Below, piece after piece: positions 25,803 to 52,454 of a stretch of DNA of 64,000 nucleotides. The position numbers and the translations under genes were made by a program. Under the pieces are notes generated by a model. It saw nothing but the letters and a program-made list of their open reading frames with translations. It was not told the DNA's origin and searched no databases. The stretch's first letter is position 1, and each line of letters begins with the position of its first letter. The stretch comes from Octopus vulgaris (taxonomy: Eukaryota), in contig OX597818.1 in assembly GCA_951406725.2 (NCBI GenBank), positions 93,930,001 through 93,994,000 of the forward strand, read 5' to 3'.

Positions 25803-28800
25803 ATGGCTGACCGTTCACAATATCCAGATGATCTAAACGAGGAATTAGAGCTTGCTACATCACGTCAGCTACATAGTCCAAAATATGTATCAGAATATCA
25901 CTTCAATGTAAGGCCATCACAACTACATCGAAATTTACTGGAACCTGACAATGCAGATCAAACACATAGATCATCATATGCATCACCACGTCATTCCATG
26001 TCTCCGTATAGGTCCAGACATTCACTACCACGCTGGAGCAGATCAATGCCATCATTTCGAGATGATTTATATCGTACTTATCCACTGAGTCTTGCAACTA
26101 GTAGAAAACTGGCACCCATATTTCTACATAATTTAACCTATCAAGGGTACTCTACTGCCTACACAACACCATCACCGGATGGATTGCAACGTCTATCTGA
26201 ACAAAAAGTATCTCCTCTCGTAACATGGGACCTTGATACTTCGAGACAGAGTCGTGATATTTCGAGGTATGGGCCAAGCACGGCATCAAGACATACGGCA
26301 AGACGTTTTCATAGCACCAGTACATTACCGACAGAAAAAACAGAATTCCGTCATACTCGCATTGAGAGCTTTAGGAATAGCACACCACAACGACATGGGA
26401 CATCAAGTTTACGTATCAGAAGCCCATCAACATCAGAACCACCATTTCATGATAGTCATATTTCGAGCTCTGAACAAAGCTCAGAGTCACGATATTCGTT
26501 ACCAATCCACCTTGGTAACAGTTCAGAGGAATATAGGGCACGTGACTTACATTCAACAGATACAATTTCTGATCTTGGAGAATTTGAACATATAGTATCT
26601 CCTGATTCTTCGAGAGGGACTCCTGATTCTGACGACTATTTTACGGCATTCGGAGAAGATGCACATAATCCAGATTCGTCAAGTGGGTCATGTTTTTCAG
26701 ATTATATCGGTGAAATGGAACCTCTGTCAGAAAATGAAATAAGGTCTCATCTCTTAAACAGAGTGTGGGATAGTGCATTTTATCGTCAATATTCTCGAAG
26801 CCAGAGAGTTTCGCGAATTAGACCTGAAATGCCAAACGTTGGACAATGTGTATTTGAACAACAAATATCCCCTGACGCAACGCGGGATGCTGACACAAGG
26901 CCGGACACTGATGCAACGGGGGAACCTGACGTAACACGGGACCCTGACGCTTCCAGACAAACTCGTGATTCTGATGACAATTTGGCATCATTTGGAGAAG
27001 ATGCACGTAGTCTAGATTCGTCAAGTGGGTCATGTTTTTCAGATTATATCGGTGAAATGGAACATCTGTCAGCGGATGAAATTAGGTCCCATCCGTTAAA
27101 CAGAGTGTGGGATAGAGCATTTTATCCTCGAAATCCTCCGAACAATAGAGTTTCGCGAATTATACCTGAAATGCCAAACGTTGAACAATGTGTATTTGAA
27201 CAACAAATATCTCCTGACGCAACGCGGGATCCTGAAACAACGCGGGACACTGACGCAGCACTGGACTCTGACACTTCCAGACGAACTCGTGACTCTGTTG
27301 ACTATTTGGCAGCATTTGGAGAAGATGCACATAATCCAGATTCGTCAAGTGGGTCATGTTTTTCAGATTATATCGGTGAAATGGAAGCTCTGTCTGCGAA
27401 TGAAATAAGGTCTCATCCCTTAAGCAGGCTGTGGGATATAGCAATTTATCGTCGATATCCTCGAAGCCAGAGAGTTTCGCGGATTAGACCTGAAATGCCA
27501 AACGTTGAACAATGTGTATTTGAACAACAAATATCTCCTGACGCTATGCGGGATGCTGACACAAGGCGGGACCGTGACACAACGCGGGACCCTGACGCAG
27601 TGAGCGACCCTGACACTTCCAGACGAACTCGTGACTCTGATGACTATTTGGCAGCATTTGGAGAAGATGCACATAGTCCAGATTCGTCAAGTTGGTCATG
27701 TTTTTCAGATTATATCGGTGAAATGGAAGCTCTGTCTGCGAATGAAATAAGGTCTCACCCCTTAAGCAGGCTGTGGGATAGAGCATTTTATCGTCGATAT
27801 CCTCTAGGCCAGAGAGTTCCACGAATTAGACCTGAAATGCCAAACGTTGGACAATGTGTATTTGAACAACAAATATCTCCTTACGCAACGCGGGATGCTG
27901 ACACAACGCGGGACAATGATGGAACGCGGGACCCTGACGCAACACAGGACCCTAATACTTCCAGACGAACTCGTGATTCTGACGAATATTTGGCAGCATT
28001 TGGAGAAGAAGCACGTAGTCCAGATTCGTCAAGTGGGTCATATTTTTCAGATTTTATCGATGAAATGGAACATCTGTCAGCGGATGAAGTAAGGTCTCAC
28101 CCCTTAAACAGGCTGTGGGATAGAGCATTTTATCGTCAATACCCTCGAAGCCAGAGAGTTTCGCGAATTAGACCTGAAATGCCAAACGTTGGACAATGTG
28201 TATTTGAACAACAAATATCTCCTGACGCAACGCAGGATGCTGACACAACGCGGGATGCTGACACAACGCGGGATGCTGACACAACGCGAGACCGTGACAT
28301 AACGTGGGAACCTAACGTAGCACGGGATTCTGACACTTCCAGACGAACTCGTGACTCTGATGACTGTTTGACAGCATTTGGAGAAGATGCACATAGTCCA
28401 GATTCGTCAAGTGGGTCATGTTTTTCAGATTATATTGGTGAAATGGAAGCTCTGTCAGTGGATGAAATAAGGTCTCATCCCTTAAGCAGGCTGTGGGATA
28501 GAGCATTTTATCGTCAATATCCTCCAGGCCAGAGAGTTCCTCGAATTAGACCTGAAATGCCAAACGTTGAACAATGTGTATTTGAACAACAAGTAATACC
28601 TCTCGTTGCACGGGACTCTGATATCTCGAGGGAAAGAAGAACAGGAGTTCGTCGTCGTCTCTTTGAGAGCACCGGGAGAAGCACACCAACACGGGATAGA
28701 ACATCAAGTTTACATAGCATCAATTCGTTATCACCAGTGCCATCATTTCGTGATCATCGTGTTTCGAGCCCTGAGCAAAGCTCATCGCCACGATATTCGT

Positions 28801-29822
28801 TACCAAGACCACTTCGCAGCACTTCAGAGGAATATAGTGCACGTCACTCTCAAACGACAGATTCAAGTTCTGATACTGAACAATTTGAACATCTAGTATG
28901 TCATGACTCAACACAGGTCTTTGACACTTTGAGACAAATATTTGACGATGATTTGGCTGCATTTGGAGATGAATATATTCCACGGCCAGAGAGTGATTCC
29001 TCAAGTGGTTCATGTTTTGCAGATTATGTCGGTCAACTTAATCCTCTCTCAGCGGATGAAATACAATCTCATTTCTTAAATATGGTGTGGCATACAGCAT
29101 TTTATCAGCGAAATGCTCTAAGCCAGAGATTTTCGGCAATTAGGCCTGAGATGCCATTAGTTGATCAATGTCTATTTCAACAAGCAACAGAGGAATCTGA
29201 TGTCTCGAGATGGAGTTATGAATCTTCGAGCGATGAGCCAAGCGCATCATCAGGATATACGGCTAGTCCCTTTGAGAGCACCGGGAGAAGCGCACCAACA
29301 CGAGATAGAACATCAAGTTTACGTAGCATCAATTCGTTATCACCAGTGCCATCATTTCGTGATCATCGTATTTCGAGCCCTGAGCAAAGCTCATCGCCAC
29401 GATATTCGTTACCAAGACCACTTCGCAGCACTTCAGAGAAATATAGTGCACGTCACTCTCAAACGACAGGTACAAGTTCTGATACTGAACAATTTGAACA
29501 TCTAGAATCGCGTGACTCAACACAGGACTTTTACACTTTGAGACAATTATTTGACGATGATTTGGTTGCATTAGGAGATGAATATATTCCACGGCCAGAG
29601 AGTGATTCCTCAAGTGGTTCATGTTTTGCAGATTATGTCGGTCAACTTAATCCTCTCTCAGCGGATGAAATACAACCTCATTTCTTAAACAGGGTGTGGC
29701 ATACAGCATTTCATCAGCGAAATGCTCTAAGCCAGAGATCTTCGGCAATTAAACCTGAAATGCCATTAGTTGATCAATGTCTATTTCAACAACAAGTAAT
29801 ACCGCCCGTTGCACGGGACTGA
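25803..29822 (+). CDS. P3: intronless Ser/Asp/Arg-rich repeat protein, about 1339 aa (ORF track starts at 25641; true start uncertain)
   Basis: 4-kb open frame; six tandem modules spaced 324-378 bp and two repeats offset by 609 bp; AATAAA near 29933. Confidence 0.8.
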   Translation: MADRSQYPDDLNEELELATSRQLHSPKYVSEYHFNVRPSQLHRNLLEPDNADQTHRSSYASPRHSMSPYRSRHSLPRWSRSMPSFRDDLYRTYPLSLATSRKLAPIFLHNLTYQGYSTAYTTPSPDGLQRLSEQKVSPLVTWDLDTSRQSRDISRYGPSTASRHTARRFHSTSTLPTEKTEFRHTRIESFRNSTPQRHGTSSLRIRSPSTSEPPFHDSHISSSEQSSESRYSLPIHLGNSSEEYRARDLHSTDTISDLGEFEHIVSPDSSRGTPDSDDYFTAFGEDAHNPDSSSGSCFSDYIGEMEPLSENEIRSHLLNRVWDSAFYRQYSRSQRVSRIRPEMPNVGQCVFEQQISPDATRDADTRPDTDATGEPDVTRDPDASRQTRDSDDNLASFGEDARSLDSSSGSCFSDYIGEMEHLSADEIRSHPLNRVWDRAFYPRNPPNNRVSRIIPEMPNVEQCVFEQQISPDATRDPETTRDTDAALDSDTSRRTRDSVDYLAAFGEDAHNPDSSSGSCFSDYIGEMEALSANEIRSHPLSRLWDIAIYRRYPRSQRVSRIRPEMPNVEQCVFEQQISPDAMRDADTRRDRDTTRDPDAVSDPDTSRRTRDSDDYLAAFGEDAHSPDSSSWSCFSDYIGEMEALSANEIRSHPLSRLWDRAFYRRYPLGQRVPRIRPEMPNVGQCVFEQQISPYATRDADTTRDNDGTRDPDATQDPNTSRRTRDSDEYLAAFGEEARSPDSSSGSYFSDFIDEMEHLSADEVRSHPLNRLWDRAFYRQYPRSQRVSRIRPEMPNVGQCVFEQQISPDATQDADTTRDADTTRDADTTRDRDITWEPNVARDSDTSRRTRDSDDCLTAFGEDAHSPDSSSGSCFSDYIGEMEALSVDEIRSHPLSRLWDRAFYRQYPPGQRVPRIRPEMPNVEQCVFEQQVIPLVARDSDISRERRTGVRRRLFESTGRSTPTRDRTSSLHSINSLSPVPSFRDHRVSSPEQSSSPRYSLPRPLRSTSEEYSARHSQTTDSSSDTEQFEHLVCHDSTQVFDTLRQIFDDDLAAFGDEYIPRPESDSSSGSCFADYVGQLNPLSADEIQSHFLNMVWHTAFYQRNALSQRFSAIRPEMPLVDQCLFQQATEESDVSRWSYESSSDEPSASSGYTASPFESTGRSAPTRDRTSSLRSINSLSPVPSFRDHRISSPEQSSSPRYSLPRPLRSTSEKYSARHSQTTGTSSDTEQFEHLESRDSTQDFYTLRQLFDDDLVALGDEYIPRPESDSSSGSCFADYVGQLNPLSADEIQPHFLNRVWHTAFHQRNALSQRSSAIKPEMPLVDQCLFQQQVIPPVARD

Positions 29823-30184
29823 TATCTCGAGACGGTGTTGTGATGCTTTGAGCCATGAGCCAAGTCCACCATCAGGATATAGGGTGATAAGTTTTCAAAG
29901 CATCAGTACGATCATTGAGGAAAGGTTATTTGAATAAAATGAACATTTTCAATTAAATATAACTGAAAAAGATATATTGTATTTTAATATGAAAAAATGC
30001 ACAAACTTCTGAAATTATCTCCATATAATAATGGCCGATACAACATTATATAGGAAGAGAAGGGACCATAAAATAGAGAAAGAGAGCGAGATAAAGAAAG
30101 AGATAATGAAAGTTAATATGGGAGGTGCGCGATGCTTACACTTACAAGACTTAGTTGTAATAGTCAACAATGAGTCAAGGTACA

Positions 30185-30228
<44 letters not shown>

Positions 30229-30532
30229 TCACTGGCTCTCACACACACACACACACACACACACATTCACTGGCTCTCTCTCACACACACACAAACACAC
30301 GATTACAGTTAGACAGGAAGAATCTTAGGGACAGAAAAGAAAACGAGGAGGGGCTGTAAATAACAGACAAGTTAAGGGTGGAGTTATACAAATGAGAAAT
30401 TTGTTTTATCTAATTCTATTTTCGGATAATAAATAATATCTTTTGAAAATTGTAATTGATTTCTTCATTCAGTATAAGTACTAAGAGATTTCATAAAAGT
30501 TAGATTATAATTTTACATACAAATTAACAATA

Positions 30533-30880: not shown

Positions 30881-31113
30881 TTTGAACTCAGAACGTAACG
30901 GCAGACGAAATACGGCTGGGCGAAATGCGTAGCCGTATTTCGTCTGCCGTTACGTTCTGAGTTCAAATTCCGCCGAGGTCGACTTTGCCTTTCATCCTTT
31001 CGGGGTCGATAAATTAAGTACCAGTTCACTGGGGTCGATGTAATCGACTTAATCCGTTTGTTTGTCCTTGTTTGTCCTCTCTGTGTTTAGCCCCTTGTGG
31101 GTAGTAAAGAAAT
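30881..31113 (+). mobile_element. SINE with an inverted 5' segment
   Basis: Body matches 46829-47059; 30881-30917 is the exact reverse complement of 30931-30967. Confidence 0.85.
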
Positions 31114-37462: not shown

Positions 37463-38957
37463 CCGAGGAAGAACTATTAAAGCTTATTGATGATATGGAC
37501 AAGGAATTGGAAGGAAGAAAGAGAAAGTTTGCGGACATCGCCCGGATGACAATGTGGAGATAAATATAGGAAAATACAAAAAACTATCGGGACTGTTACA
37601 ACGCACAAGTAACCCCCACCCGCAGGAAACAACAAAAATAATAAAAAGTAGAACGGTGATATACAAGACCTACTCGGTCAAAAAAGGTAAAATTGACCAC
37701 ATGGCAACGGAGCAAGTAGAGAAGGTGCTGAGGCCAGTCTGGCAAGAAATAACATACCTTGCCAGAGGGGCGAAATTTGGAGAAGTAGAAGTAAGATATA
37801 AAAATGAAAATACTGCAAAAAACAAAAAAAAAAACATGCGGCAACACCGCTAAGGGACGACGAATTAGTACTTCTATCCACGTATCTGGGACAGAGAGCG
37901 TCTCGGGTAAGGGTAGAAGGAATTCCATCGGAGATAGACGTGGCCTGGATAGCGGCCGCTGTCTTGGCGGAAACCGAGGTCAAAATAACGGTGCTCCAGG
38001 CCATGAAAACGAAAATCATAAATTGGAAAGAACAAATTTTAAACATGATAATTCAAGGATCAAATGAGGCAATTGAAGAAATGGTGGAAACAGTAACGGT
38101 AAACGATACCGTAATGAATGTAAGGGTGGAGGGTAGAATTCCTCGCTGTTTCTAGTGTGGCCAAAAGGGCTACATAAGGGCTACATAAGAGCGAAATGCT
38201 CTCCACCGGATAAAAGAGTGGAAGAATTACAGGAGGAGGACAATAGGGAAAAAAACGCAAGAGAGGCCCCAGGAAGGACCAGAGGCGGAAGAATAGCAAA
38301 AAATGGGAAAAAGAAAGAGAAGGAAGAGGAAGAAAAGTCCGGTACACAAGGAACTTCACCCAATAACTACTCAAGGTCCACCCATATCCTCTTTGTCTCA
38401 CCCTCGCCCTGCAGACACTAAGCCTTCCTATTCCCGTCCATCACAAAAACAAAAGACACACACACACACAATGAATCACAAATATCCTCTCCCTGTTTTG
38501 CATGTTTAATAGAGGATGATGATCTATTTGTAAAGGTAATCAAATGGGAGAACACGGTTTTTGTTCATGTAGTGGATGAGGACGAAAATAACGAGATGGT
38601 GATATTATTAACAGAACGGCAAAAAGTAGAAATAGAGAGGCACAACGGGGATTGTGAACTGTGGAAGGTTGACTTGGACAAAGAAAGGCTTCCACGGAAT
38701 ATAGATTTCATAGAACTGAAAAAGAAGTTTTTCATAGACATAAATGGGGAAGCCAATCACAACCTTCAACAAATTCACAAATTCAAAACAACATTCAACA
38801 ACTCGGCAACTCAACAATACAGCAATTCAACAATTCCGCAATTCAACAAAGCAATAAATAACTCACACAAACTTCAGCAGTCGACTCTGAACTCTGAAAT
38901 CACTCGGATCGTTACTATTTATACTTTACTCAGACCAGTCCATCTCTCGCAAAGGGG
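37463..38957 (+). mobile_element. LINE ORF1 (gag-like) remnant in opposite orientation to the adjacent ORF2
   Basis: RGAKFGEVEVRY, RVRVEGIP, zinc knuckle RCF*CGQKGYIR..C followed by a Lys/Glu-rich tract. Confidence 0.65.
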
Positions 38958-39154
38958 TGTCTTATCTTTCGTCACAACAGGTTATCATACCAGAAGCTTA
39001 TATTTTGTCCACATTCTTCTCGTGGTTTGTCTAATCGTTGACGCGATCTAATTTAAAGGCTTACTAGCATATAACTGATGTTCGTGATCTTCTAGTTACC
39101 TCAACCTTTACAATTTTAAATCTAACGTGTGGTTTTTACCTAGACACATTAGGT

Positions 39155-39426
39155 GAGTGGTTCCCATACATTCTCAGGTTGCAATCCCTTTTGCAGGCAG
39201 GCCGCATTCCTAGCGTCCTGCCCCACCCCCTACTCACCACCACTTTCTGCATCAAATTCAAAACAACTGTATTTCACAAATATTACTTAACCTAATTAAT
39301 CCATTATTTTTTTTATATACACTACTCCCCTTTAGCTAAACCATTATCGCTCCACTTTTTTTCAACGCTCTCTTGACTTTTCTACTGCCCACAAGGGGGC
39401 AGCACCGCCCACTTTTGGAACCAATG
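39155..39426. mobile_element. hAT-type MITE, same insertion as 21338-21618 copied by segmental duplication
   Basis: Matching flanks (gacacattaggt...ttagatgaactttcg) and body. Confidence 0.8.
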
Positions 39427-39703
39427 CGTTAGATGAACTTTCGTTTCAAGCTTATTTATTTTTATGGGGTTGCAGATAATTTAACATTAAGGAAAAGGCT
39501 CAAGTTTATAGTTATCTTTCATTTGCTTTTCTTATCCTTCCTATAGTTAAGCAAATTTTATGCACTACAAATTTTATTCTCCCTTCAGACTTTTATTGCC
39601 TGTGCTTGCTTAAGAGTGGCTAAAGGTATGCAACTGTATATTCATTGATGATTCTATCTTATATATATATAGTTTCTCATTCATGGCTACATAGACACAC
39701 CCG

Positions 39704-39773
<70 letters not shown>

Positions 39774-40564
39774 GTTTTCTTTCAGTGGTTGACCGTTACT
39801 TTAAGTGGGTAAGGCACACAACCTGAAAACCATACACTGCCCGAACCTGTTCCCTATTCTCTAAGCAAAACTGCAAAATCGGTCCTTTAGTCCATTCAAT
39901 CCAGGGCATTGTTGGGGTGAAGAACAGATCTGGAAGGCTTTAGAGAGCTCCTGAGAGAGCAAAAAAAAGAAAAGGCAGTTAAGAGGAAAATTACTAAATA
40001 TGAATGTGTAACTGGAAGTGAGGCTGTAAATTCTACGGATATGCTGCCACATTGTGTAAGAACAGTATTGAAAATCCTAGGATATAAACGTAGAGTTTCA
40101 AGAAATAAACTAATGATTTTAAAAGACCAAATAAGACAAATTGCTTCAACTGGGCTGTATGAAAGAAAACAAATGTTACTTATCTATAATATGGTCTGAT
40201 AACAGCAACTCCTGCCAGATTTTGCAATTCTATGTAGATATATTTTGTGGTTCGTCTTTCGGTGGTGGAATCGATCAGATATAATTATGATTTTTAACAT
40301 AACCACAAAACTGTAACTTTATGATGAAGAAATAGTTGATTAAAATCTATTCAATTAATGCTTATTTTACCAATCTCAAGATGTTTGAACACAGAACGGA
40401 AATATAGGTATCCGAAAACAGTTAGTCCTTTTTTTTATTGCTTCACTGATTGTGACATTAGCAGTTGTTATGTATTTAACTTAATATTCATATTTAATAG
40501 TAACAGTAAAATGATAGCGATGATACTACTACAGTACGATGCTGAAATGATTCAAATTCACTGG

Positions 40565-40572
40565 TGACGTCA
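40565..40572. promoter_or_regulatory. Full CRE palindrome upstream of P4
   Basis: TGACGTCA ending 75 bp before the ATG at 40647. Confidence 0.65.
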
Positions 40573-40646
40573 TAGTTGAAAGTAAATCATTATTAAACTA
40601 TTTAGTTTCAGTTCTCTGCATTGAGAATCAATTTGAGGTGATCAGA

Positions 40647-43600
40647 ATGAATACCATAGAGAAAGACAGTATTTCGAGTTATGAACACCTCTACTCCCAA
40701 ACTGAAGAAACGGCTGACCATTCACAATACCCAGATGATCTAAATGAGGAATTATGCATAACTACAGGACTGAATAAATGCGAAGCTATTATAGAAGATA
40801 CTATTGGACATGTTGATTCTCTAGACAACGTTGGTGAAAATTCTAATGCGAATGATAATGACGATATGATGAAAAGGATTGAAATAGATGTTAGGGTAAG
40901 TCAAAACAATGACCAGTTAAACGATTATGGTGAAAATTGCTCAGCAAAACATGACTATTCTAAAGACGTGAAAACTGGGCGATGTGTATGTGAAGTAGCA
41001 GACGATAAAAACGTGTATGTAAACAACAGATTGGAATGTGAGACACTGAATGGAGGAAAGGATGTCAGCCCTGACAAACATCCATTTAAATTGAACAAGA
41101 GAAGCGCAGAATTAGATAAGTTTTTACCAGAGGAAGACAAAGAAAATTTTGCAACGAACAAAGAATGCATAATCAAAGGAGGAAAAATATATTTGATATC
41201 AAGAATAAACTCACATGGCATTAATACAGCCACAGAAATGATTCAAAATAGTATAACAAATTTAACTTACACGTTGTTTTATATTTCTAAATATTCAAGG
41301 AAGAAAAAATCGGAAAATAATGATGAAATTTCGTCAATTAGAAAACCATTCGAGGAATGCCAAAATTTCGCAACACAAGAACCTAACCTCAGTATACAAA
41401 AATCATACCCTCTCTGTATTTCGTCACGTCGATACAGAACTTCGTTTGCGGATATGCCATATAGCAACACATCGGTAAGAAAATCAATCAACTCATCTAG
41501 AAAAAATTCTAAAAGCAAAATTTCAGCGCTTTTGAGATGTCGGACATTTTCATATTCACGTAATAATAATAATTCAGCAGAACCACATTCGAGGCCACCC
41601 AGTCCAATATCACGGCGATTTCGTCGGTTACGAGATTCACTGGAACTTGCTGCTAGATCACGTGAGATACCAATTGCACATTTACCTCGCTCTTCTACAC
41701 ATGTACCATATAGTCGGTTACGAGATTCACTGGAACTTGCTGCTAGATCACGTGGGATACCAGTTGCACTTTTACCTCCTTCTACAACACATGTACCATA
41801 CAGTCGGTTACGAGATTCACTAGAACTTGCTAGATCACGTGGGGTACAAACTGAACTTTCACCTCATTCTACAGCACATATACCATATAGTCGGTTACGA
41901 GATTCACTGGAACTTGCTGCTAGATCACGTGGGATACCGGTTGCACTTTTACCTCCTTCTACAACACATGTACCATATAGTCGGTTACGAGATTCACTAG
42001 AACTTGCTAGATCACGTGGGGTACCAACTGGACTTTCAACTCATTCTACAGCACATATACCATATGGTCGGTCACGAGATTCACTGGAACTTGCTGCTAG
42101 ATCACGTGGGATACCGGTTGCACTTTTACCTCCTTCTACAACACATGTACCATATAGTCGGTTACGAGATTCACTAGAACTTGCTAGATCACGTGGGGTA
42201 CCAACTGGACTTTCAACTCATTCTACAGCACATATACCATATGGTCGGATACGAGATTCACTGGAACTTGCTAGATCAAGTCAACTACGTGAGCCACGAT
42301 ATGCACCAGAATATCAATTCATTGAAAACTCACCACACTCATATCGAGGTTCACTGGAACCTGTCAATATAGATATATCAAATAGATCATTATATGCATC
42401 ACCACGTTCTTCCATGTCTCCGTATAAGTCACAACATTCATTGTCACGCTCGAGCATATCAATGCCATCGCTTCGTTGTCGTTGTAGATCGATCTCTGAA
42501 CAAAGCATGCCGTCACAATATTGGTTACCAAGGCCACTTCGTAGAAGTTCAGTGCCAGCAGGCCTTTTGTGGCCTGCTACAAGCTCACCGGAACAATATA
42601 GGGTACGTGACTTACAAACAACAGATATAGTTGTTCCTCAAGAATTTGAAAAACAAGTATCTCCTTTCGTAACATGGGATCCTGATACGTCGAGATGGAG
42701 TCGTGATTTTGAAGACAGTTTGGCAGAATTTTGGGATAAATCAAAGCGTATCGATGTTGTGGGTCGTGGTACCTCTACAAGACCAGCATCCATATTACGA
42801 GAGAAATCAAGAGGGGCCGACAGAGTTCACTGGCGTAGTTCTTTGGCGCCAGAAGCATCATTTCGTTTTCGTCGCCTTTCGAGCCCTAGACAAAGCACAC
42901 CGTCTCCACATAGGTCTCCACGATTACGTAGCAGCAGTCCATTGGCGCCAAGAACATCATTTCGTCTTCGTCGTAGTTCGAGCCCTAGACGAAGCACACC
43001 GTCTCCATATAGGTCGCCAAGATTACGTAGCAGCAGTCCATTGGCGCCAAGAACATCATTTCGTCTTCGTCGTAGTTCGAGCCCTAGACGAAGCACACCG
43101 TCTCCATATAGGTCGCCAAGATTACGTAGCAGCAGTCCATTGGCGCCAAGAACATCATTTCGTCTTCGTCATAGTTCGAGCCCTAGACGAAGCACACCGT
43201 CTCCATATAGGTCGCCAAGATTACGTAGCAGCAGTCCATTAGCGCCAAGAACATCATTTCGTCTTCGTCGTAGTTCGAGCCCTAGACGAAGCACACCGTC
43301 TCCATATAGGTCGCCAAGATTACGTAGCAGCAGTCCATTGGCGCCAAGAACATCATTTCGTCTTCATCATAGTTCGAGCTCTAGACGAAGGGCACCATCA
43401 CAGTATCGGTTACCAAGTACACGTCGTAGCAGTTCAATGCCAGCAGGCCATTTGTGGCATACTACAAGCTCACCGGATAAATATAGGGTACGTGACTTAC
43501 AAACATCAGATATAGTTGTTCCTCAAGAACTTGAACAATTATCTCCTATCAGAGCACCGCCACAGGACCCTTTGTGGTCTAACGCAAGCACACCCGAGCA

Positions 43601-45191
43601 TTATAGGGTACGTGACTTTCAAACAACAAATATAATTGTTGATCCTCAAGAATTTGAAAAACAAGTAGGTCCTTTCGTAACATGGGACCCTGACACTTCG
43701 AGATGGAGTCGTGATTTTGAAGACAGTTTGGAAGAATTTTGGGAAAATTCTTACAGAGAAGATTCTAGGCATAAATCACCATTAGTGAAATATTCCAGCA
43801 GCAATTCATTGGGGCCAGAAACATCGTTCGATCTAAGTTACATTTTGAGCCCTGGGCGAAGCACATCGTCATCATCCAGGTCACAAACTTTAGATAGCAG
43901 CAGTCCATTGGGGCCAGAAACATCATTTCGTCTTCGTCGTAGTTCGAGCTCTGGACGAAGCATACCGTCACAATATCAGTTGCCAAGTCCACGTCGCAGC
44001 AGTTCGATCTCCGGACGAAGGATACCATCGCAGTATCGGTTATCAAGGCCACTTCGCAGCAGTTCAGTGCCAGCGGGCCCTTTGTGGTCTAACGCAAGCA
44101 CGCCCGAGCAATATAGGGTACGTGACTTTCAAACAACAAATATAAGAATTGATCCTCAAGAATTTGAACAAGTATCTCCTTTCGTAACATGGGACCCTGA
44201 CACGTCGAGATGGAGTCGTGATTTTGAAGACAGTTTGGCAGAATTATGGAATAAACCAATGCGTATCAATGTTGTGGGTCGTGGTACTTCTACAAAATCA
44301 GCAGCCATATTACCAGAGAAATCAAAAGGTGCCGACGGAGTAAGTCGTGGTACTTATACAAGGCCAGCGTCCATATTACGTGAGGAATCAATAGTTACTG
44401 ATGGAGCACGTCGTGGTACTTATACGGTGCCAACGTCCATGTTACATCGTGGTACTTATACGAAACCAGCGTCCATATTGAGGGATGAATCAAACCGTAG
44501 TAGTTCTAGCTATGATAGTAGTGCTTCGGCGGAATATAAGTCACGTAAGTTACGTGGATTTCAAACAACAAATATAATAATTGATCCTCAAGAATTTGAA
44601 AAACAGGTATCTCCTTTCGTAACATGGGATCCTGACACTTCGAGATGGAGTCGTGATTTTGAAGATAGTTTGGAAGAATTTTGGGCAAATCCTTACAGAA
44701 AAGATTCTAGACATAAATCACCATTAGTGAAATATTCCAGCAGCAGTTCACTGGGGCCAGAAACATCGTTTGATCTTCGTCGCATTTCGAGTCCTTGGCG
44801 AAGCGCATCGTCATCATCCAGGTCACGAACTTTGGATAGCAGTTCATTGGGGCCAGACACATCGTTCGATCTTCGTCGCATTCCAAGCCCTTGGCGAAGT
44901 ATATTGTCATCATCCAGGTCACGAACATTAGATAGTAGCACTTTATCGGAGCCAGAAACATCGTTCGATCTTCGTCGCATTTCGAGCCCTGGGCGAAGCA
45001 CATTGTCATCATCCAGGTCACGAACTTTAGGGGAAGATACTGAGAGCTCAGGTTCAGAGAGTTATTCTTCAAGTGCGTCATGTAGTTCATGTTATACCGA
45101 TGAGCCAGATTCTATGTTAGCAGACGAAATACACTTTCAATCCTTAAACAGGGCTTGGCATCGTCCAAACTTGAGGAGATTCTTGAATTAG
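40647..45191 (+). CDS. P4: intronless Arg/Ser/Pro-rich multi-repeat protein, about 1514 aa
   Basis: 4.5-kb open frame; family N-terminus; 8 RDSLELA units, about 5.5 units of 33 aa, four FVTWDPDTSRWSRDFEDSL modules; AATAAA near 45212 and 45252. Confidence 0.82.
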   Translation: MNTIEKDSISSYEHLYSQTEETADHSQYPDDLNEELCITTGLNKCEAIIEDTIGHVDSLDNVGENSNANDNDDMMKRIEIDVRVSQNNDQLNDYGENCSAKHDYSKDVKTGRCVCEVADDKNVYVNNRLECETLNGGKDVSPDKHPFKLNKRSAELDKFLPEEDKENFATNKECIIKGGKIYLISRINSHGINTATEMIQNSITNLTYTLFYISKYSRKKKSENNDEISSIRKPFEECQNFATQEPNLSIQKSYPLCISSRRYRTSFADMPYSNTSVRKSINSSRKNSKSKISALLRCRTFSYSRNNNNSAEPHSRPPSPISRRFRRLRDSLELAARSREIPIAHLPRSSTHVPYSRLRDSLELAARSRGIPVALLPPSTTHVPYSRLRDSLELARSRGVQTELSPHSTAHIPYSRLRDSLELAARSRGIPVALLPPSTTHVPYSRLRDSLELARSRGVPTGLSTHSTAHIPYGRSRDSLELAARSRGIPVALLPPSTTHVPYSRLRDSLELARSRGVPTGLSTHSTAHIPYGRIRDSLELARSSQLREPRYAPEYQFIENSPHSYRGSLEPVNIDISNRSLYASPRSSMSPYKSQHSLSRSSISMPSLRCRCRSISEQSMPSQYWLPRPLRRSSVPAGLLWPATSSPEQYRVRDLQTTDIVVPQEFEKQVSPFVTWDPDTSRWSRDFEDSLAEFWDKSKRIDVVGRGTSTRPASILREKSRGADRVHWRSSLAPEASFRFRRLSSPRQSTPSPHRSPRLRSSSPLAPRTSFRLRRSSSPRRSTPSPYRSPRLRSSSPLAPRTSFRLRRSSSPRRSTPSPYRSPRLRSSSPLAPRTSFRLRHSSSPRRSTPSPYRSPRLRSSSPLAPRTSFRLRRSSSPRRSTPSPYRSPRLRSSSPLAPRTSFRLHHSSSSRRRAPSQYRLPSTRRSSSMPAGHLWHTTSSPDKYRVRDLQTSDIVVPQELEQLSPIRAPPQDPLWSNASTPEHYRVRDFQTTNIIVDPQEFEKQVGPFVTWDPDTSRWSRDFEDSLEEFWENSYREDSRHKSPLVKYSSSNSLGPETSFDLSYILSPGRSTSSSSRSQTLDSSSPLGPETSFRLRRSSSSGRSIPSQYQLPSPRRSSSISGRRIPSQYRLSRPLRSSSVPAGPLWSNASTPEQYRVRDFQTTNIRIDPQEFEQVSPFVTWDPDTSRWSRDFEDSLAELWNKPMRINVVGRGTSTKSAAILPEKSKGADGVSRGTYTRPASILREESIVTDGARRGTYTVPTSMLHRGTYTKPASILRDESNRSSSSYDSSASAEYKSRKLRGFQTTNIIIDPQEFEKQVSPFVTWDPDTSRWSRDFEDSLEEFWANPYRKDSRHKSPLVKYSSSSSLGPETSFDLRRISSPWRSASSSSRSRTLDSSSLGPDTSFDLRRIPSPWRSILSSSRSRTLDSSTLSEPETSFDLRRISSPGRSTLSSSRSRTLGEDTESSGSESYSSSASCSSCYTDEPDSMLADEIHFQSLNRAWHRPNLRRFLN

Positions 45192-46828
45192 ACCTCAAAT
45201 GCCAAACGTTGAATAAATGTCTATTTGAATTCGACGAAAAATTTTAAGAAAATAAAACTGGAAAAAGTTATATTGTATTTTAATACGAGAAAAATCAAAT
45301 GCTTCTGAAATTTTCTGCATATCATAATAACCATAATTTAGTTGGTGGGTTGAATTCTCCAGTCACGCATTGCAGCATTTAGAAAAAGAGGAGAAGAGAA
45401 TAAAAAAATGAGAGAGAGAAGAGAAAAGGAGATTGAGAGAGAGAAAGGGAGAGAAAGAGAGAATGTGTGTGTGTGTTTGTGTTAACATAGGAGGTGCGGG
45501 ATGCGTCCATTTACTAGGCTTAGTAGTTACAGTCAATGAGTAAAGGAACACTATACACACATATGGGGAGAGGGGTAGAGGGAGAGGTTGTGGTGTGTGA
45601 AATGTATAATTTTTTTTAACCAAGTTTTTTCTCCGTTACTTAGCCCGTCTGTAACGTTTTCACGTGATTAGTTGAAGAGAACGGCGAAGAGTAAAGGAAC
45701 AAGGAGAGAGAACAAGTAAGTATGACGTCGAGTGAGAGAGAAAGCGGGAGAGTGCTGTGTATTAAGTCTATAAAATTGTTATAAAGTATATACAGTGTAT
45801 ATATAACGTGCATTAAGTAATCATTGTATTCCAGTTTCCTTCATTTTTTAATAATTAGCAGATGAGCGACTATTTTTTAGTACAGACACAGCACAGACTA
45901 CACTTTCAGGTTTTAGGATAACGTTTTCAGAAATAACCCAATAAGTTTACCATTAATTCCATAAAATATTCACGGATCTCGCTAGTTATTATTGTATACA
46001 TGACATATTTCTTGATGTTACCGTTTGTAGCAAAAGTATATTACCAAAGTTACCTGTTATATGACAAGTATCAAGCCTGTTTGAAATATTAATTGGCTGA
46101 ACACATTGGCTCTGCAATCGAAATTTTACAGTGATTAAAAGGATAATTTTGTTACCAATGCTCCTGGAGGAATCAATCTGCTAAATGTTGGTCTAGGTAA
46201 TATTGCGACAAAGTAGCGAGTTGTCAGAATCGTTACCGCACTGGGCAAAATGTTTAATGGCATTTCGTCTGTCTTTCTTTAATCCTTTCGGGCAGAGAAA
46301 ATTAGTACAAATCGAGCACTGAGGTCGATGTAGACGACTTACCTACTCTGCCGAAATTGCTGGCCTCGTGCTAAATTTTGAAACCATTTATTGTTACAGT
46401 TCGCTACATTTTTAGTGTGTGCTTTAACTTCAAAACCTTGGTACAGTATTCACAGTAGCTCAATGACTATGGATGAAATGAAGAGAATGGTGTTTGACAG
46501 AAAGTAAAATAAAAGTAAATGTACCACAAGACAATATTCTTACTCACAATTAACTGTCATCTCTATATTTTAAAGTTTATATTAGACCGTAACTTAAACT
46601 CAATTCTACAGCGAAGACAAACTTGTAGTCTGACGTTCTAGGAACGACCAAACGGGGTAATAGTTAGTGGGGAGTGTGGGGTGGTGGATACAATGTGGAT
46701 GACAAGAGACGGTGAGACGGGTGAGTCACTATTAGGAGATGAGAGAGAAGAGATTACACATGAAGATCAGGTGCATAATATGTTGCTAGGCGACTTCGTG
46801 CCAATTAGTTGAGATGGTATCTATTCAG

Positions 46829-47059: not shown

Positions 47060-47072
47060 GGTATCTATTCAG

Positions 47073-47810
47073 ATTCGGCTGAGAATGTCTGTGTATAGCA
47101 ACAGAATTCTTTCCTTTATAGCTCTCATCTTATCTCGACAGCTGACGGGGTCGAAGTGTTCTTCGGCTCTGAATTGGAAGGACATTTATCATGCAGTATT
47201 TGGTATGTCAAGTTATGCATTTACCGGGAGGGTTCCTCAGTGAGAGTGAAACTCAGCATTTCTCGCGATTTAGGAGTATTCTAGTATCATGTTGTTTGTG
47301 TGTTTAAAAAGGGTTGCCATGATGTTTTCACGATATATTTAATAGTTGCGTCTTTGTACTGAGAAAGGTGACAAGATTAGCGTGGCCACATTGAAAATTG
47401 CCTCCAGGTTCCTGTTTATTGTGTCAAAGCATGTTTGTTGCAAGGTGTCTTGGTTGCTTGGGCGCAAAAGATTAGTAAGTAATAAAAGCTGGTAAGATCT
47501 ACACAGGAATAGGTGTTCTTCGAGGTGATGACAAAAAGGTCATTGGTATATAAGAGGAAAATTTTGTGGGACCAAACCGTATGATGGAGCACACCTTACT
47601 TAATTGCGCCCTAGTCAGAATAAGCGTGTCAACACTCGTTCCGATGACTTGATCTTACCTGAAGTCATTGATTCAAGATATGGATTGTACCCGTAAGAGA
47701 GAATTATGGCCCGGAGATTTGCATGCCAGACACGGTCGACAGCTTTACAGATGATGTAGATCTGCCTCAACAAATGTCATATTGGTAGTTATTGTGGGCT
47801 CGATCAGGAG
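47073..47810 (-). mobile_element. Possible highly decayed Penelope-like endonuclease region
   Basis: Only weak motifs (GNFQCGH..., RAIKERILL...); no intact frame. Confidence 0.3.
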
Positions 47811-47849
47811 TAGCGATATTCCCATAGAATGAAAGAGAAAGAGAGAAAA

Positions 47850-47960
47850 TATGTATGCATGCATGTATGTATGCATGTATGTATGTATGTATGTATGTAT
47901 GTATGTATGTATGTATGTATGTATGTATGTATGTATGTATGTATGTATGAATGTATGTAT
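47850..47960. repeat. (TATG)n microsatellite
   Basis: Directly visible. Confidence 0.97.
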
Positions 47961-50861
47961 AATTTTAAATTCTTTCTCTATGTCTGCGGTGGCCGAACTT
48001 GAATTTGACGCAAAATCTCTAACATAAATTCGAAGCTAAACACTATTCTTATTCTGTACTCATTTTAACCTAAGCTCTGCAGTAAACTCGTTTGAACCTT
48101 GAACCCTGTTCTGTTACTACTAAAATGGACTATCTTCTCTAAAATAATCAGTTGTAAGGTCTGTCCGGGAATGTCGTAGAAATGGCTAACTTTTCGTGAC
48201 TAAACCATGAAAAAGAATACTGCTTGATAGATACAACGTAAATGAATATCCTGCCAGAATAATATGGACAGGCTGTATGTAGTTAGCAGAGGAACCTGAT
48301 GTATTAAAGAGTAAAATCAAACGAAATCCATATATGATATCCTTTCATACCAGCCAGTATTAGACGATGGACAAGAACGATACTAGTAAATGCCATGAGT
48401 AGAGAGGTTACACACCGTTGTAAATTATTCTGGCAACATGGAAGTCATCGTTTGCCATATATTTCGAGCAGCACAAATACATTTCGACATTATCACTCTC
48501 ACCAACAGTTCCAGATAGTATTGATATTACCAGAAAATACCCTGCTTCTTTTGTCCTTCAACTTACTTTTCTCTTTCTACATTTTCCTGTCATTTTTAAT
48601 GTCTCTACATGAAACGAAGGACGATTGCAATTACTTCAACTAACTCAGTGATTATTCGTTGAATGACTCGTCATGTATCTGAGGATCGTTGTCAGCGTTG
48701 GTGTTTTTCCCACATGCATTTGCCATTTCCAAATGATTCATTCTCTGCTTATTCTACAGTCTACAAGTCACTACCTCGCCATTCTTCCTAAGCTCAATGT
48801 CAGTCAGCGATCTAACTACAAGCACACCACATCCCACTTGAGGCAATTTTCTTTCAGGTCACTTTCCCAAAGCACCGTCAACTCAACAACATGAAAGTTA
48901 ATTTTCCGCAAACAAAATGAATATAAAGGTAGATAAAACTGATCTGTTAGTTGGCTGTAAGGAAAAATAAGGGCTAGAACATTTTGAACATAGTCCTTCA
49001 TCGAAGGATCTTTTAATCTCCGACAGAGAGTCATGTCCGAAATATCAGACATATAACACTCATGACACGCTAACTTTTTCCACTACGTGAACTGATTGCC
49101 TTTACTACTTGTTGATAAAGATTATCGCTAGTTTTGTCGAATTTTGCGGCTTCACTTGAATAAAGGCGATATATGTTATGTATATATATATATATATATA
49201 TATATAACTATTATATAAGCGTGCATGATATCATCCGTATTGTACCTGTAGTTCCGACTTTCATTGGTCCTGCAAATTGACATTAGCAATGACTCTCTCT
49301 GCTCCTTGTAGACATAAAATGGTTTAAAAAGCGATATTTTTATATCAACCAAAAATTACAATTTTTTTCATTTATTATAAGATAGCTTGCGACGTAACTA
49401 TACTTAAACATACTCGTCTTTTGCTAAATATGCTTTGAACGAGAAACGTGTTTCCTTTGTAAAGACGTTTAAAATGAATGACGCAAGTAGCTTGTACTTT
49501 TTTGCATATGTTCGTTGACCTGTGCAAGAATATTTGTAGGCATATATGCATACATACTTGCATATTTACTTACACACATGAGGTCAGGCAACAAAAGCTA
49601 CGTTATGCAGTTAAATATTTTTTAAAGAATCCTCATCAATAATGAGAGTGTCACTACTCTAATCATTGTCACTCGCACACTGTATTATTTAGAGAATGAA
49701 AAAAAAGGTCATTGACCATGTTGTCTAACTGAGAGAAATATGGCAGTTTTTGGCAGTAATCCTGATACCAAGCACCTTTCCTCACTCTACACATCACCAA
49801 GATTACGACTTCTTCAAACTCATGGGCTTCGGGAAAACTTGTAACGATCAAGCATACCGAGACCCTGTTTAGTAGTAATTGGTTGCAGATATACGTTTTA
49901 AGGAATGGTACTTGTCCTTTGTACAATGAGCAAAACAGAAACTGTTTCAAACTAATTATAAAACCAAATGGCGAAGTATTAATAAACCATCGACGTTTTG
50001 CAGATATGTACCTAACCTATTCGAACTTTCAGGGATAGCTTCCACTCAGAGTAATTCCAAGAGAAATCAGCTACTCTGTTCTGTATGGGGCTTCGGTTCC
50101 TATCCAAGCTCCATGTAATTTAACTGGACCTTAATCAAGCTAGAAAAGCAGGCCAACACAAACTTATTTTTCCAGATACTAAGTTAAAAGCTCTCCCATA
50201 CGACTTGGTTAATGAATTATTCTCTTATCATTTCGTAATCCTCCAGCGTAGCACGAAATATAAACTTACTTGCGATTCTTGAATTATTTGCTAGGAACCA
50301 TGTACTGGTAGTTATCAATATTGTATTGTTCTGACACCCCCATAACTTCAAAGTTTATCTAGAGACAGTTTTGACTGATATCTGTTCATGCTGTCGTTCA
50401 CCAATTTCCCAGCATCAGTCGTGAAGACAAATTTTTCACCGTTGCTCCAACTGCCATTGTAGATTCTATAAAGGGCAAAACTTTGCAAAAATATTCATAA
50501 GATGCTAAAATGATAGATACTTCAAGAAACAGGTTTCAGCGACTGCTATGTATCCCAAAGTTCGGCACTAAATAACATAATATAGTAGGGTGTGATTTGA
50601 GATTCAATTGTTATTTGTAGCGCGAAGTCTCCCCCATTGGCTTGTCTTTCAGTGGTAAAATCGAGTAGAGATTTTTCACATAGCTACTACAAAAGTGCAA
50701 CTTTATAAAGAACGAGTTGATTAAAATCTTCTTCGGTATTTGAATGCTGCTTATTTTACCAGCCCCAGAAGAATTAGAACCCAGAACGGAAATATATGTA
50801 ACTAAAAACTGCTAAGCATTTTGTTTATTGTTTCACTGATTGTGCTATTAAGCGCTATTGA

Positions 50862-51118
50862 CCCATGACCTGGTGGTTAAAGTGTTGCACTCACAATTTC
50901 GAGATCGTGGTTTCAGTTCCTCGACTGGGTGGTGCGTTGTGTTCTTGAGCAAAACATATAATCTCACGTCGCTCTGCAATTACTTCGCCACTTGATGTGT
51001 GGTATACTGTATACCTGTTCAGGCAATATTGATTTGATGGAGAGAATGAGCTGATGAACCGCACATACAATTGATCACTATAAACAAATCATACGTCATC
51101 TTCGACGGAGGAGTCCAT
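50862..51118 (+). mobile_element. tRNA-derived SINE inserted in the P5 upstream cassette
   Basis: catgacctggtggttaaagtgttgcactcac...ggtttcagttcc head; absent at the equivalent position of the other paralogues. Confidence 0.65.
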
Positions 51119-51129
51119 TATACGTATAA

Positions 51130-51175
<46 letters not shown>

Positions 51176-51208
51176 GCATGATGCCGAAATGATTGTCGCA
51201 TTTATTGA

Positions 51209-51216
51209 TGACGTCA
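51209..51216. promoter_or_regulatory. Full CRE palindrome upstream of P5
   Basis: TGACGTCA ending 72 bp before the ATG at 51288. Confidence 0.65.
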
Positions 51217-51287
51217 CAGTTGAAAGTAAAACAATAAATCATTTAGTATAATTTCTGTCCATTGAGAATCAATGTGAGGTGACCAGC

Positions 51288-52454
51288 ATGAATACCACAG
51301 AGAATGATAGTTTTTCGAGTTATCAACACCTCTGCTACCAACCTGATCAAATGGCTGACCATAATCAATATCAAGACAATCTAAATGAAGAATCAGACCA
51401 AACTACAGGAGATAATAATGATATGTATTCTGAAGACGACAGTCGTGAAATAACTGATGAAGATGACATTGGTGATGAGAAGGAAAGTCAAAACAACGAC
51501 CAGTTAGACGAAGATTTCTCATCAGAAGATGACTATCCAAAAGACGAGAAAGCTGAGATCTGTGTGTGTGAAGTAGCAGACGATGAGAACGGAGGTGAAA
51601 ATAACATATTGGAAAGTAAGACACACAATGAAGACGAGAATGTCAGTCTGGATAACATTACAGTTAAATTAAAGAGTGGAACGGCAGAATTTGATAAATC
51701 TGTACCAAACGAAGACGAGGGTAATTATGACACGAGTATGAAATATGCAATCGAAGGAGGGAAAATAAATACGATGTCAGACACTTACCCACACAATGTG
51801 AATAGTGATCTGGATAGATATCAAGACGGTGAATCATTTGTAATATATCGAATGTTTTATATTCCTAAATTTCCAAGGAAGCGGGAACCAGAATATGAGG
51901 TTGAAAACATCCCGTATACTGGTGTCTATGAACTTGAAAGACCGTACAGTCCGAGAGGTTTATTAGAACGTCGTACCCGCTCAATATCAGCGTCAGGACG
52001 TCGTATAAAGCTACCACGGGAACGTCATACCCATTCCATCCTGTTACCTGAACATCATTTATATAAACGTCAAACCAGGTTAACCAAACCACTGAAATAT
52101 CGCACTGCTTCAGTACCACGATATAGCTCTGGAGATACACCGAGACCCAGTCCTTTTACCATACGGTCCCCTAAAAACTGTGTTTTTGTTGAGGGTGAAT
52201 CACGTGTAAAACTTGCACCTTATATACAGCCTCCTGATCTCCAAGAAGATGGTCATGTGTCTGGTATGTCCGTAACTGGGACGTCTTTTCCAGGTTTTGC
52301 AGTCGATCCTATATCCGTGCCAGAAGCTAAGTCGAAATATAAAGCTTTGTTTCGAAAGTGGGATCCAGTGTTTTATAATGTCGATCTTCCACCATTTAAA
52401 CAAAAGATAACTGTTAGCGAAATGCCAGATATTAAACGACAGATCTTTCAATAA
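51288..52454 (+). CDS. P5: shortest, most divergent, unexpanded paralogue, about 388 aa
   Basis: MNTTEND...MADHNQY...CVCEVADD...IEGGKI...FYIPK aligns with P1, P2 and P4; single C-terminal KWDPVFY...EMPDIKRQIFQ module. Confidence 0.8.
   Translation: MNTTENDSFSSYQHLCYQPDQMADHNQYQDNLNEESDQTTGDNNDMYSEDDSREITDEDDIGDEKESQNNDQLDEDFSSEDDYPKDEKAEICVCEVADDENGGENNILESKTHNEDENVSLDNITVKLKSGTAEFDKSVPNEDEGNYDTSMKYAIEGGKINTMSDTYPHNVNSDLDRYQDGESFVIYRMFYIPKFPRKREPEYEVENIPYTGVYELERPYSPRGLLERRTRSISASGRRIKLPRERHTHSILLPEHHLYKRQTRLTKPLKYRTASVPRYSSGDTPRPSPFTIRSPKNCVFVEGESRVKLAPYIQPPDLQEDGHVSGMSVTGTSFPGFAVDPISVPEAKSKYKALFRKWDPVFYNVDLPPFKQKITVSEMPDIKRQIFQ

What the first reader, a model, noticed from the sequence alone, without database searches (positions are those of the whole stretch)
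26620..52454. A conserved C-terminal module (GEDxH...W-D/H-xxFY...EMP...FQ) is the likely ancestral functional unit
Seen: P3 has eight copies (e.g. AFGEDAHSPDSSSGSCFSDYIGEMEALSANEIRSHPLSRLWDRAFY...IRPEMPNVEQCVFEQ). P5 ends in one divergent copy (LQEDGHVSGMSVTGTSFPGF...LFRKWDPVFY...VSEMPDIKRQIFQ). P4 ends in a broken copy, the pseudogene holds parts, and P1/P2 lack it. Conserved aromatic/hydrophobic positions within disordered sequence suggest a small fold or binding motif, with P3 an octavalent version (inference).
Basis: partly seen in the sequence, partly recalled or inferred. Interest (0 to 1): 0.7.

Follow-up and report, generated by a model that had tools for sequence, protein, structure and literature searches.

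The report
Octopus-specific repeated protein docking module
A cluster of fast-evolving, largely unstructured octopus proteins shares an undescribed 60-residue tail segment whose aromatic residues and spacing are preserved and which one gene repeats eight times, probably as a partner-binding patch, though its partner and tissue are unknown.

Summary
Observation largely confirmed; interpretation half right. The window is Octopus vulgaris. P3 holds eight copies of a 60-residue core. P5 ends in one true but distant copy (0 of 5000 shuffles reach its score; DNA profile E=0.006). P4's copy is frameshifted, a module-only remnant lies at 1973-2203, and P1/P2 lack it. Searches added two O. vulgaris paralogs (one with a single terminal copy, one with three plus a stub) and an O. 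bimaculoides ortholog of P5; no named hit lay outside Octopus. A single C-terminal copy is therefore the likely ancestral state. The core is gap-free in 14 of 14 intact copies, and five columns stay aromatic against 0.5-0.6 expected under neutrality. However, GEDxH (4 of 14) and EMP (10 of 14) are not family-wide. The module is less conserved than the shared N-terminus, its dN/dS of 0.67 is not distinguishable from 1, AlphaFold finds no fold, and two other motifs are amplified in sister genes. Best reading: a fold-on-binding docking segment, one of several in a birth-and-death family of disordered intracellular proteins, with P3 a multivalent version. It is undescribed, but of a known kind, and no function is shown.

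The parts
25551..29822 (+). P3 ORF (1423 codons stop to stop; possible starts 25641, 25686, 25803); lacks about 1.5 kb of the family's N-terminal acidic region; carries 8 modules; not found in the protein collection
26640..26864 (+). P3 module 1 (Trp codon 26766)
26982..27206 (+). P3 module 2 (Trp codon 27108)
27306..27530 (+). P3 module 3 (Trp codon 27432; F+4 replaced by I)
27648..27872 (+). P3 module 4 (Trp codon 27774)
27990..28214 (+). P3 module 5 (Trp codon 28116)
28368..28592 (+). P3 module 6 (Trp codon 28494)
28953..29186 (+). P3 module 7 (Trp codon 29088; second subtype, 35 of 60 identical to module 4)
29562..29795 (+). P3 module 8, terminal (Trp codon 29697; Y+5 replaced by H)
26199..26261 (+). 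P3 partial copy of motif A that keeps its first Trp; the spacers between modules are Trp-depleted motif A derivatives with an 18-nt microrepeat
51252..52454 (+). P5 ORF (388 aa from ATG 51288); 80% identical, gap-free, to O. bimaculoides A0A0L8H842
52227..52454 (+). P5 single divergent C-terminal module (60-codon core 52269-52448, Trp codon 52359)
40551..45191 (+). P4 ORF (1514 aa from ATG 40647): N-terminal region, 8 copies of motif C, Arg/Ser/Pro-rich 33-aa repeats, 4 copies of motif A, broken module
45026..45229 (+). P4 broken module: in frame to the Trp, then a net 20-nt loss; the 3' half is out of frame behind the stop
42627..42740 (+). P4 motif A copy 1 (other copies 43632-43748, 44142-44255, 44574-44690)
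41610..42290 (+). P4 array of motif C (LRDSL core), 8 copies
1973..2203 (+). isolated module remnant with frameshifts and stops; no other family sequence detected in 1-3500
8303..10867 (-). P1 paralog (798 aa from the MNTT start); no module
14155..16128 (+). P2 paralog (643 aa), inverted duplicate of P1; no module
25353..25616 (+). upstream non-coding element shared by all five genes (also 11873-12267 on -, 13301-13701, 40217-40494, 50638-50850); promoter or 5' exon by inference
52478..52487 (+). 3'-flank decamer found only behind the three module-ending genes (also 29973-29982 and 45269-45278); pattern chosen after seeing it

Best explanation
The module is a roughly 60-residue fold-on-binding docking segment at the C-terminus of an Octopus-restricted family of intracellular, intrinsically disordered proteins whose coding sequences are single long ORFs in a tandem cluster undergoing birth and death. 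SHOWN: common descent of the copies; a fixed 60-residue register; retained anchors F(-24), F/Y(-21), L(-4), W(0), F/Y(+4), Y(+5), P(+22), I/V(+24); near-neutral change elsewhere; no signal or membrane segment; amplification to 8 copies in P3 and 3 plus a stub in CAI9722905.1. INFERRED: the L-x3-W-x3-F-Y stretch forms an amphipathic helix that, with the upstream F-x2-F/Y and the downstream P-x-I/V stretch, lies along one partner surface, which is why the spacing never changes. The partner is a folded, more conserved protein. Tandem amplification by unequal exchange raises valency, so P3 binds with higher avidity or cross-links several partners, and the Ser/Arg-rich spacers allow phospho-regulation. 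The module is one of at least three short motifs (C, A, module) that lie in series in the compact paralog CAI9722906.1 and are amplified or lost separately in sister genes, so it is an ancestral part, not the sole functional unit. GUESS from the general pattern only (about 0.4): the family acts in the male germ line.
For: Homology of the P5 tail. Single terminal copy in P5, its ortholog and CAI9722906.1 (E=2.8e-16, residues 396-461 of 461). P5 is the most distant branch in both module and N-terminal trees (midpoint root only). Gap-free core in 14 of 14 intact copies. All-aromatic columns 5 observed vs 0.50-0.60 in neutral codon simulation, reached in 1, 1 and 0 of 5000 runs for three roots; P5 vs CAI9722906.1 identity 5 of 9 at aromatic vs 10 of 51 other positions, p=0.036. 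Frames kept open although about 5 (P3 cores), 9 (P1/P2) and 13 (four N-termini) nonsense changes are expected. Both AlphaFold2 models put a helix over the Trp with no tertiary packing. Hydrophobic moment of the Trp 11-mer is 0.41-0.55 in 8 of 9 copies scored (P3 90th percentile 0.45). Highest 19-residue hydropathy 1.39 or less in 8 of 8 proteins. Motif A: 4 copies in P4, 4 in CAI9722905.1, 1 in CAI9722906.1; motif C: 8 in P4, 2 in P2, 1 each in P1 and CAI9722906.1.
Against: No partner, tissue, transcript or protein evidence was obtained. Core dN/dS 0.67 does not differ from 1 (p=0.13). The total number of invariant columns (5) is what neutrality gives (3.5-3.9; reached in 1358-1738 of 5000 runs). 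The aromatic test is partly circular because aromatic matches drive detection, and it used a star tree with 5 of the 14 copies as lineage representatives. Anchors are lost in two P3 copies (module 3 F to I, module 8 Y to H) and module 7 has a low hydrophobic moment (0.21). P5 has Pro at W+2, which would break the helix. P3 is absent from the protein collection under three starts and from three searches, so its expression is unproven. Monophyly of each gene's repeats is not secured: AU p=0.06 for a mixed clade. The trees have no outgroup.
Confidence: 0.55

Rival explanations
1. The module is a small autonomous fold (mini-domain) and P3 is a beads-on-a-string repeat protein.
For: No indel across 60 residues at about 20% identity; 9 columns hydrophobic in all 5 lineages. 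The alignments given to AlphaFold2 were shallow (12 and 9 rows), so a fold could be missed.
Against: pTM 0.15 and 0.19, mean pLDDT 52 and 57, 1 and 3 residues at 70 or above. Atlas models of whole P5 and CAI9722906.1 have pTM 0.10 and 0.16. dN/dS near 1 and faster divergence than the acidic N-terminus are unusual for a folded core. The two Cys of P3 are not shared by P5 or CAI9722906.1.
Confidence: 0.15
2. The aromatic residues are 'stickers' for self-association or condensate formation (reflectin-like block copolymer), and copy number tunes assembly rather than binding to a defined partner.
For: Disordered, charge-blocked proteins (acidic N-terminus, basic middle) with repeated aromatic motifs; reflectins are a cephalopod precedent (PMC11931252, passages).
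Against: Stickers do not need an invariant 60-residue register or residue-specific L, W, Y and P. Met and Tyr are low (0.8-2.6% and 1.8-5.4%) and the reflectin motif is absent in 8 of 8 proteins.
Confidence: 0.12
3. The module is a nearly neutral relic: only open frames and overall disorder are selected, the eight copies come from repeat slippage, and aromatic retention reflects ascertainment.
For: dN/dS 0.67-1.4 everywhere tested, none different from 1; invariant columns at neutral level; module broken in P4, absent in P1/P2, decayed at 1973-2203; P3 unannotated.
Against: All-aromatic columns 5 vs about 0.55 expected; no indels in 14 of 14 cores; the register is also fixed by the stop position and the 3' flank; the Trp block is 19 of 19 identical between O. 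vulgaris and O. bimaculoides P5, although equally conserved windows are common in that pair (121 of 354).
Confidence: 0.1
4. The module is a microtubule-binding repeat of sperm or ciliary microtubule inner proteins (TEX33/CIMIP4-like).
For: The only feature hit for P5 residues 310-388 in the ESM Atlas was a TEX33/CIMIP4 cluster (score 0.75, 114 of 256 features). Such proteins are unstructured alone and bind through short aromatic motifs (recalled).
Against: 0.75 is below the level shuffled proteins reach a third of the time. The CAI9722906.1 tail gave no usable hit. Pfam gave 0 families for 9 of 9 module rows at E up to 10. No axonemal chain among PDB matches and no such protein among the HMMER hits.
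Confidence: 0.08

Closest known systems
NBPF / Olduvai (DUF1220) domains of primates (analogy)
   Same: A lineage-amplified, intrinsically disordered unit of about 65 aa, tandemly repeated within genes, with subtypes and gene-specific copy number (10.1101/2021.07.06.450945, passages).
   Different: No sequence match. Olduvai units are encoded by exon doublets, whereas the octopus units lie in one uninterrupted ORF. No per-repeat furin-type site (1 R-x-K/R-R in all of P3).
Reflectins (cephalopod disordered block proteins)
   Same: Cephalopod-restricted, disordered, conserved motifs joined by variable linkers (PMC11931252, passages); tandem gene clusters (PMC6386654, passages).
   Different: No MD-x5-MD motif, low Met and Tyr, ordinary Leu content in 8 of 8 proteins; no reflectin among the HMMER hits.
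TEX33/CIMIP4 and other sperm microtubule inner proteins
   Same: A weak language-model feature resemblance of the P5 tail; disordered proteins binding through short motifs (recalled).
   Different: Score at chance level; no Pfam, PDB or HMMER support.
Fast-evolving, tandemly duplicated, disordered germ-line gene families of animals (e.g. SPANX, GAGE; recalled, not tested)
   Same: Uninterrupted coding sequence, tandem and inverted duplicates, dN/dS near 1, pseudogene remnants, narrow taxonomic range.
   Different: No homology; germ-line expression of the octopus genes is unknown.

Membership tests
Any Pfam family | match at the curated cut-off | tested here: not met
   0 families for 9 of 9 module rows at E up to 10; P3 and P5 none at cut-off; P1's CCDC85 whole-protein score 24.3 vs cut-off 23.8 has 0 passing stretches and sums tandem repeats
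Reflectin | repeating MDX5(MDX5)nMDX3-4 motif | tested here: not met
   0 matches in 8 of 8 proteins (pattern recalled when run, confirmed by PMC11931252 passage)
Reflectin | Met/Arg/Tyr-rich, under 2% Leu/Ile/Val | tested here: not met
   Met 0.8-2.6%; Leu 5-8%
NBPF/Olduvai | sequence homology to DUF1220 | tested here: not met
NBPF/Olduvai | two-exon encoding of each unit | tested here: not met
   all 8 units lie in one 1423-codon ORF
NBPF/Olduvai (works like) | disordered unit of about 60-65 aa amplified in tandem in one lineage | tested here: met
   disorder is predicted only
TEX33/CIMIP4 microtubule inner protein | homology to PF15400 or to a solved axonemal chain | tested here: not met
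   Atlas score 0.75 is a chance-level lead
TEX33/CIMIP4 microtubule inner protein | location in the axoneme lumen | not testable with these tools
   needs proteomics or cryo-EM
Autonomous folded domain | confident compact model | tested here: inconclusive
   pTM 0.15 and 0.19 from alignments of 12 and 9 rows
Fold-on-binding docking motif | conserved aromatic/hydrophobic anchors inside a disordered, fast-evolving chain | tested here: met
Fold-on-binding docking motif | a specific partner | not testable with these tools
   no candidate partner known
Secreted or membrane protein | signal peptide or transmembrane segment | tested here: not met
   maximum 19-residue hydropathy 0.06-1.39 in 8 of 8 proteins (simple scale, no dedicated predictor)

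The most novel reading that the evidence does not exclude
The cluster is a combinatorial valency system. A compact ancestor carried three docking motifs in series (C, A, module), as CAI9722906.1 does, and paralogs specialised by reciprocal amplification and inactivation. P3 multiplied the module eightfold while stripping the tryptophans from motif A; P4 multiplied A and C while frameshifting the module; P1/P2 kept only C-type repeats. Each gene thus became a multivalent scaffold or competitor for one partner, with fast change between fixed anchors reflecting a genetic conflict, for example in the octopus germ line.
Probability: 0.2. Interest if true: 0.65.

Novelty: new member of a known kind. 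Interest (0 to 1): 0.4.

Why it matters
It defines an undescribed octopus-restricted protein family and pins down which residues matter: five aromatic columns, Leu and Pro in a fixed register, not GEDxH or EMP. That gives a precise mutagenesis and pull-down design. It also flags a 4.2-kb open frame that seems to be missing from the protein collections. If the reciprocal amplification of motifs is functional, the cluster is a compact natural example of how orphan disordered proteins diversify by changing motif valency. Without a partner or tissue, the wider importance is modest: lineage-specific disordered repeat families are a known kind.

Tried and rejected
Pfam on 7 main ORFs, 9 module rows and 39 further ORFs of the 70 listed: only transposon domains. 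PDB sequence searches with three profiles: best E 0.065, chance level. Rfam at gathering thresholds: 0 matches. ESM Atlas: one chance-level lead and one blank. Complex prediction for two copies of the module: no answer (score 0.00); it is no evidence either way. Foldseek and VIA searches were not run because both models were too uncertain. One HMMER hit outside Octopus names (P0008, an unnamed 192-aa tandem-repeat ORF, E=4.5e-6 summed over 4 stretches of 17 residues) was dropped as a probable chance repeat match and left out of all alignments and counts. Mosaic origin of CAI9722905.1 (module tree vs N-terminal tree) is not shown: AU p=0.087. Known short motifs (LIR, FFAT, eIF4E, PP1, clathrin box) were compared by eye from memory and fit only some copies; not tested. 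Preferential conservation of the module between P5 orthologs: not found. Paper searches for the accessions gave 0 papers; searches on octopus orphan, testis or disordered families found no description in the listings; the TEX33 search gave 0. The 2015 octopus genome paper was not held, so its tissue-expression supplements, which could bear on expression, were not seen. The word-index search is incomplete (it missed CAI9722906.1), and the 50% library hides close relatives behind representatives, so other octopod copies may exist. Bacterial and archaeal genome, phage and plasmid collections were not searched, as irrelevant; metagenome and viral contigs stayed unchecked.
Full report
Setting. The window is animal genomic DNA, rich in microsatellites and transposon remains, with five long ORFs: P1 8303-10867 (-), P2 14155-16128, P3 25551-29822, P4 40551-45191 and P5 51252-52454. 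P1, P2, P4 and P5 are in the protein collection on a 147,548,901-bp contig that also carries two proteins named Octopus vulgaris, CAI9722905.1 and CAI9722906.1, so the source is O. vulgaris and the cluster extends beyond the window. All five genes share an upstream non-coding element and the start region. P1, P2, P4, P5 and the two outside paralogs share a 200-300-residue acidic N-terminal region, of which P3 lacks about 1.5 kb.

Observation. P3 has eight copies of the module: six close ones and a second subtype of two. The P5 tail is at noise level in a blind protein search (domain E=0.8, below four antisense frames of P3). It is clearly homologous in targeted tests: 0 of 5000 protein shuffles and 0 of 1000 codon shuffles reach its score, a P3-only DNA profile finds it nearly full length at E=0.0059, and hhalign gives E=2.8e-4. 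A decamer that occurs 3 times in the window lies behind P3, P4 and P5; I chose it after seeing it, so it is modest support. P4's copy is frameshifted after the Trp codon, a module-only remnant lies at 1973-2203, and P1/P2 show no trace.

Relatives. Word-index searches found the O. bimaculoides ortholog of P5 (A0A0L8H842, 80%, gap-free) and CAI9722905.1, which has three modules and a stub. HMMER over 1.84 billion representatives gave 4 hits at E up to 0.001: CAI9722905.1, P5, CAI9722906.1 and one unnamed tandem-repeat ORF that I dropped as chance. CAI9722906.1 (461 aa) ends in a single module in the same register as P5. No named hit lay outside Octopus; cephalopod coverage of the library is unknown and close relatives are hidden behind representatives. 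P3 was not found under three starts or in three searches. The genome paper lists developmental Iso-Seq and adult bulk RNA-seq as annotation evidence, and the words testis and gonad do not occur in its main text (PMC10700109; 12 of 25 passages seen). That may explain the gap (inference).

What is conserved. A 60-residue core aligns without gaps in 14 of 14 intact copies. Across five lineages (P3 module 4, P3 module 7, CAI9722905.1 copy 1, CAI9722906.1, P5; 5 of the 14 copies) F(-24), L(-4), W(0), Y(+5) and P(+22) are invariant, and five columns are always aromatic. In neutral codon simulations matched to the observed identities, five invariant columns are ordinary (1358-1738 of 5000 runs), but five all-aromatic columns are not (1, 1 and 0 of 5000). 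The simulation used a star tree and the test is partly circular.

What is not. The module is the faster-changing part of the family. P5 shares 11-15 of 60 core residues with paralogs but 38-49% of the N-terminal region; CAI9722905.1 and CAI9722906.1 are 93% identical in the N-terminal region but share 32 of 60 in the core. The branch separating P5 is about 3.2 changes per column in the module tree and 0.9 in the N-terminal tree. Between P5 orthologs the module (57 of 74) is no more conserved than the rest (p=0.52). Codon models give dN/dS 0.67 for the eight P3 cores (p=0.13 against 1), 1.38 for spacers, 0.96 for P1/P2 and 0.88 for four N-termini; none of nine tests differs from 1. Yet the frames stay open where about 5, 9 and 13 nonsense changes are expected, so these are or recently were translated genes.

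Other motifs. Motif A (Trp-containing, just upstream of the module) has 4 copies in P4, 4 in CAI9722905.1 and 1 in CAI9722906.1. In P3 it survives mostly as Trp-depleted spacers with an 18-nt microrepeat. Motif C has 8 copies in P4, 2 in P2 and 1 each in P1 and CAI9722906.1, and the 162-nt repeats of P1 resemble the P2 region that holds motif C at 72-75%. CAI9722906.1 carries C, A and the module once each, in that order. P3 thus amplified the module and eroded A, while P4 amplified A and C and broke the module. Each gene's module copies group together in the tree, suggesting separate amplifications, but a mixed clade is not rejected (p=0.06) and there is no outgroup.

Structure. AlphaFold2 gives pTM 0.15 and 0.19 with a helix over the Trp and no packing (alignments of 12 and 9 rows). 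Atlas models of two whole proteins are also unconfident. No protein has a strongly hydrophobic segment, so the family is probably intracellular. Pfam, PDB and Rfam give nothing.

Mechanism. I favour a fold-on-binding docking segment (0.55). A few aromatic and hydrophobic anchors at fixed spacing, in a chain that otherwise drifts, is what an extended motif bound along a conserved partner would leave, and tandem copies would add avidity. Homology, register and anchor retention are shown; helix formation is predicted; binding, partner and tissue are inferred or unknown. Rivals are a mini-domain (0.15), self-association stickers (0.12), a nearly neutral relic (0.10) and a sperm microtubule inner protein repeat (0.08, from one chance-level Atlas lead).

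Comparison and verdict. It works like primate Olduvai units in architecture (10.1101/2021.07.06.450945, passages) and recalls reflectins as cephalopod disordered block proteins (PMC11931252, passages; PMC6386654, passages), but it fails membership in both. Searches for the accessions and for such an octopus family found no description (listings only); most subscription papers and the 2015 genome paper's supplements were not seen. The module is real, undescribed as far as these searches reach, and probably ancestral as a single C-terminal copy, but it is not the family's sole or best-conserved unit. New member of a known kind; interest 0.4.

Noticed in passing
window 25551-29822 (+): The 4.2-kb P3 ORF appears to be missing from the protein collection while its four neighbours are present; the family's usual start codon reads ATA in P3 (near 25788).
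   Followed up: partly
window 7985-10875 (-) and 14022-16443 (+): P1 and P2 are an inverted duplicate pair (90-93% DNA identity) with dN/dS 0.96 over 634 codons; their 54-aa repeats seem derived from motif C.
   Followed up: partly
window 42843-43390 (+): P4 has 5.5 copies of a 33-aa Arg/Ser/Pro-rich repeat (96% matches) resembling RS-domain or protamine-like kinase substrates (resemblance recalled); P4 has 55 R-x-x-S sites.
   Followed up: no
window 11873-12267, 13301-13701, 25353-25616, 40217-40494, 50638-50850: A non-coding element of about 300 bp, 72-96% identical, lies upstream of all five genes, with a possible splice donor in the same column; a retroelement fragment (11237-11704, zf-RVT) and microsatellites sit between it and P1.
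   Followed up: partly
window 2200-3500 (+): Directly behind the module remnant lie decayed frames with a zinc-knuckle-like and an aspartyl-protease-like stretch, suggesting an old LTR retrotransposon (motifs recalled; Pfam gave no hit on three ORFs there).
   Followed up: no
window 21180-22155 and 38980-39893; 25040-25801 and 39903-40660: P3 and P4 share kilobases of upstream flank (75-81%), marking a segmental duplication unit of 15-18 kb.
   Followed up: no
window 26757-28703 (-): Antisense frames of the P3 modules score 5-12 bits against the module's own protein profile, with a Trp and Pro at like spacing; probably a coincidence, but it sets the noise level for the P5 match.
   Followed up: no
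window 18413-18892 (-), 55398-56015 (-), 4495-4938, 53055-53735: A Tc1/mariner transposase fragment, a LINE zf-RVT fragment and two long inverted repeats (one built of 33-nt units).
   Followed up: no
window 38422-39051 (+): A 209-codon ORF with protein-like composition and only sub-threshold Pfam matches (DUF3276, E=0.024); nature unclear.
   Followed up: no
   Followed up: partly
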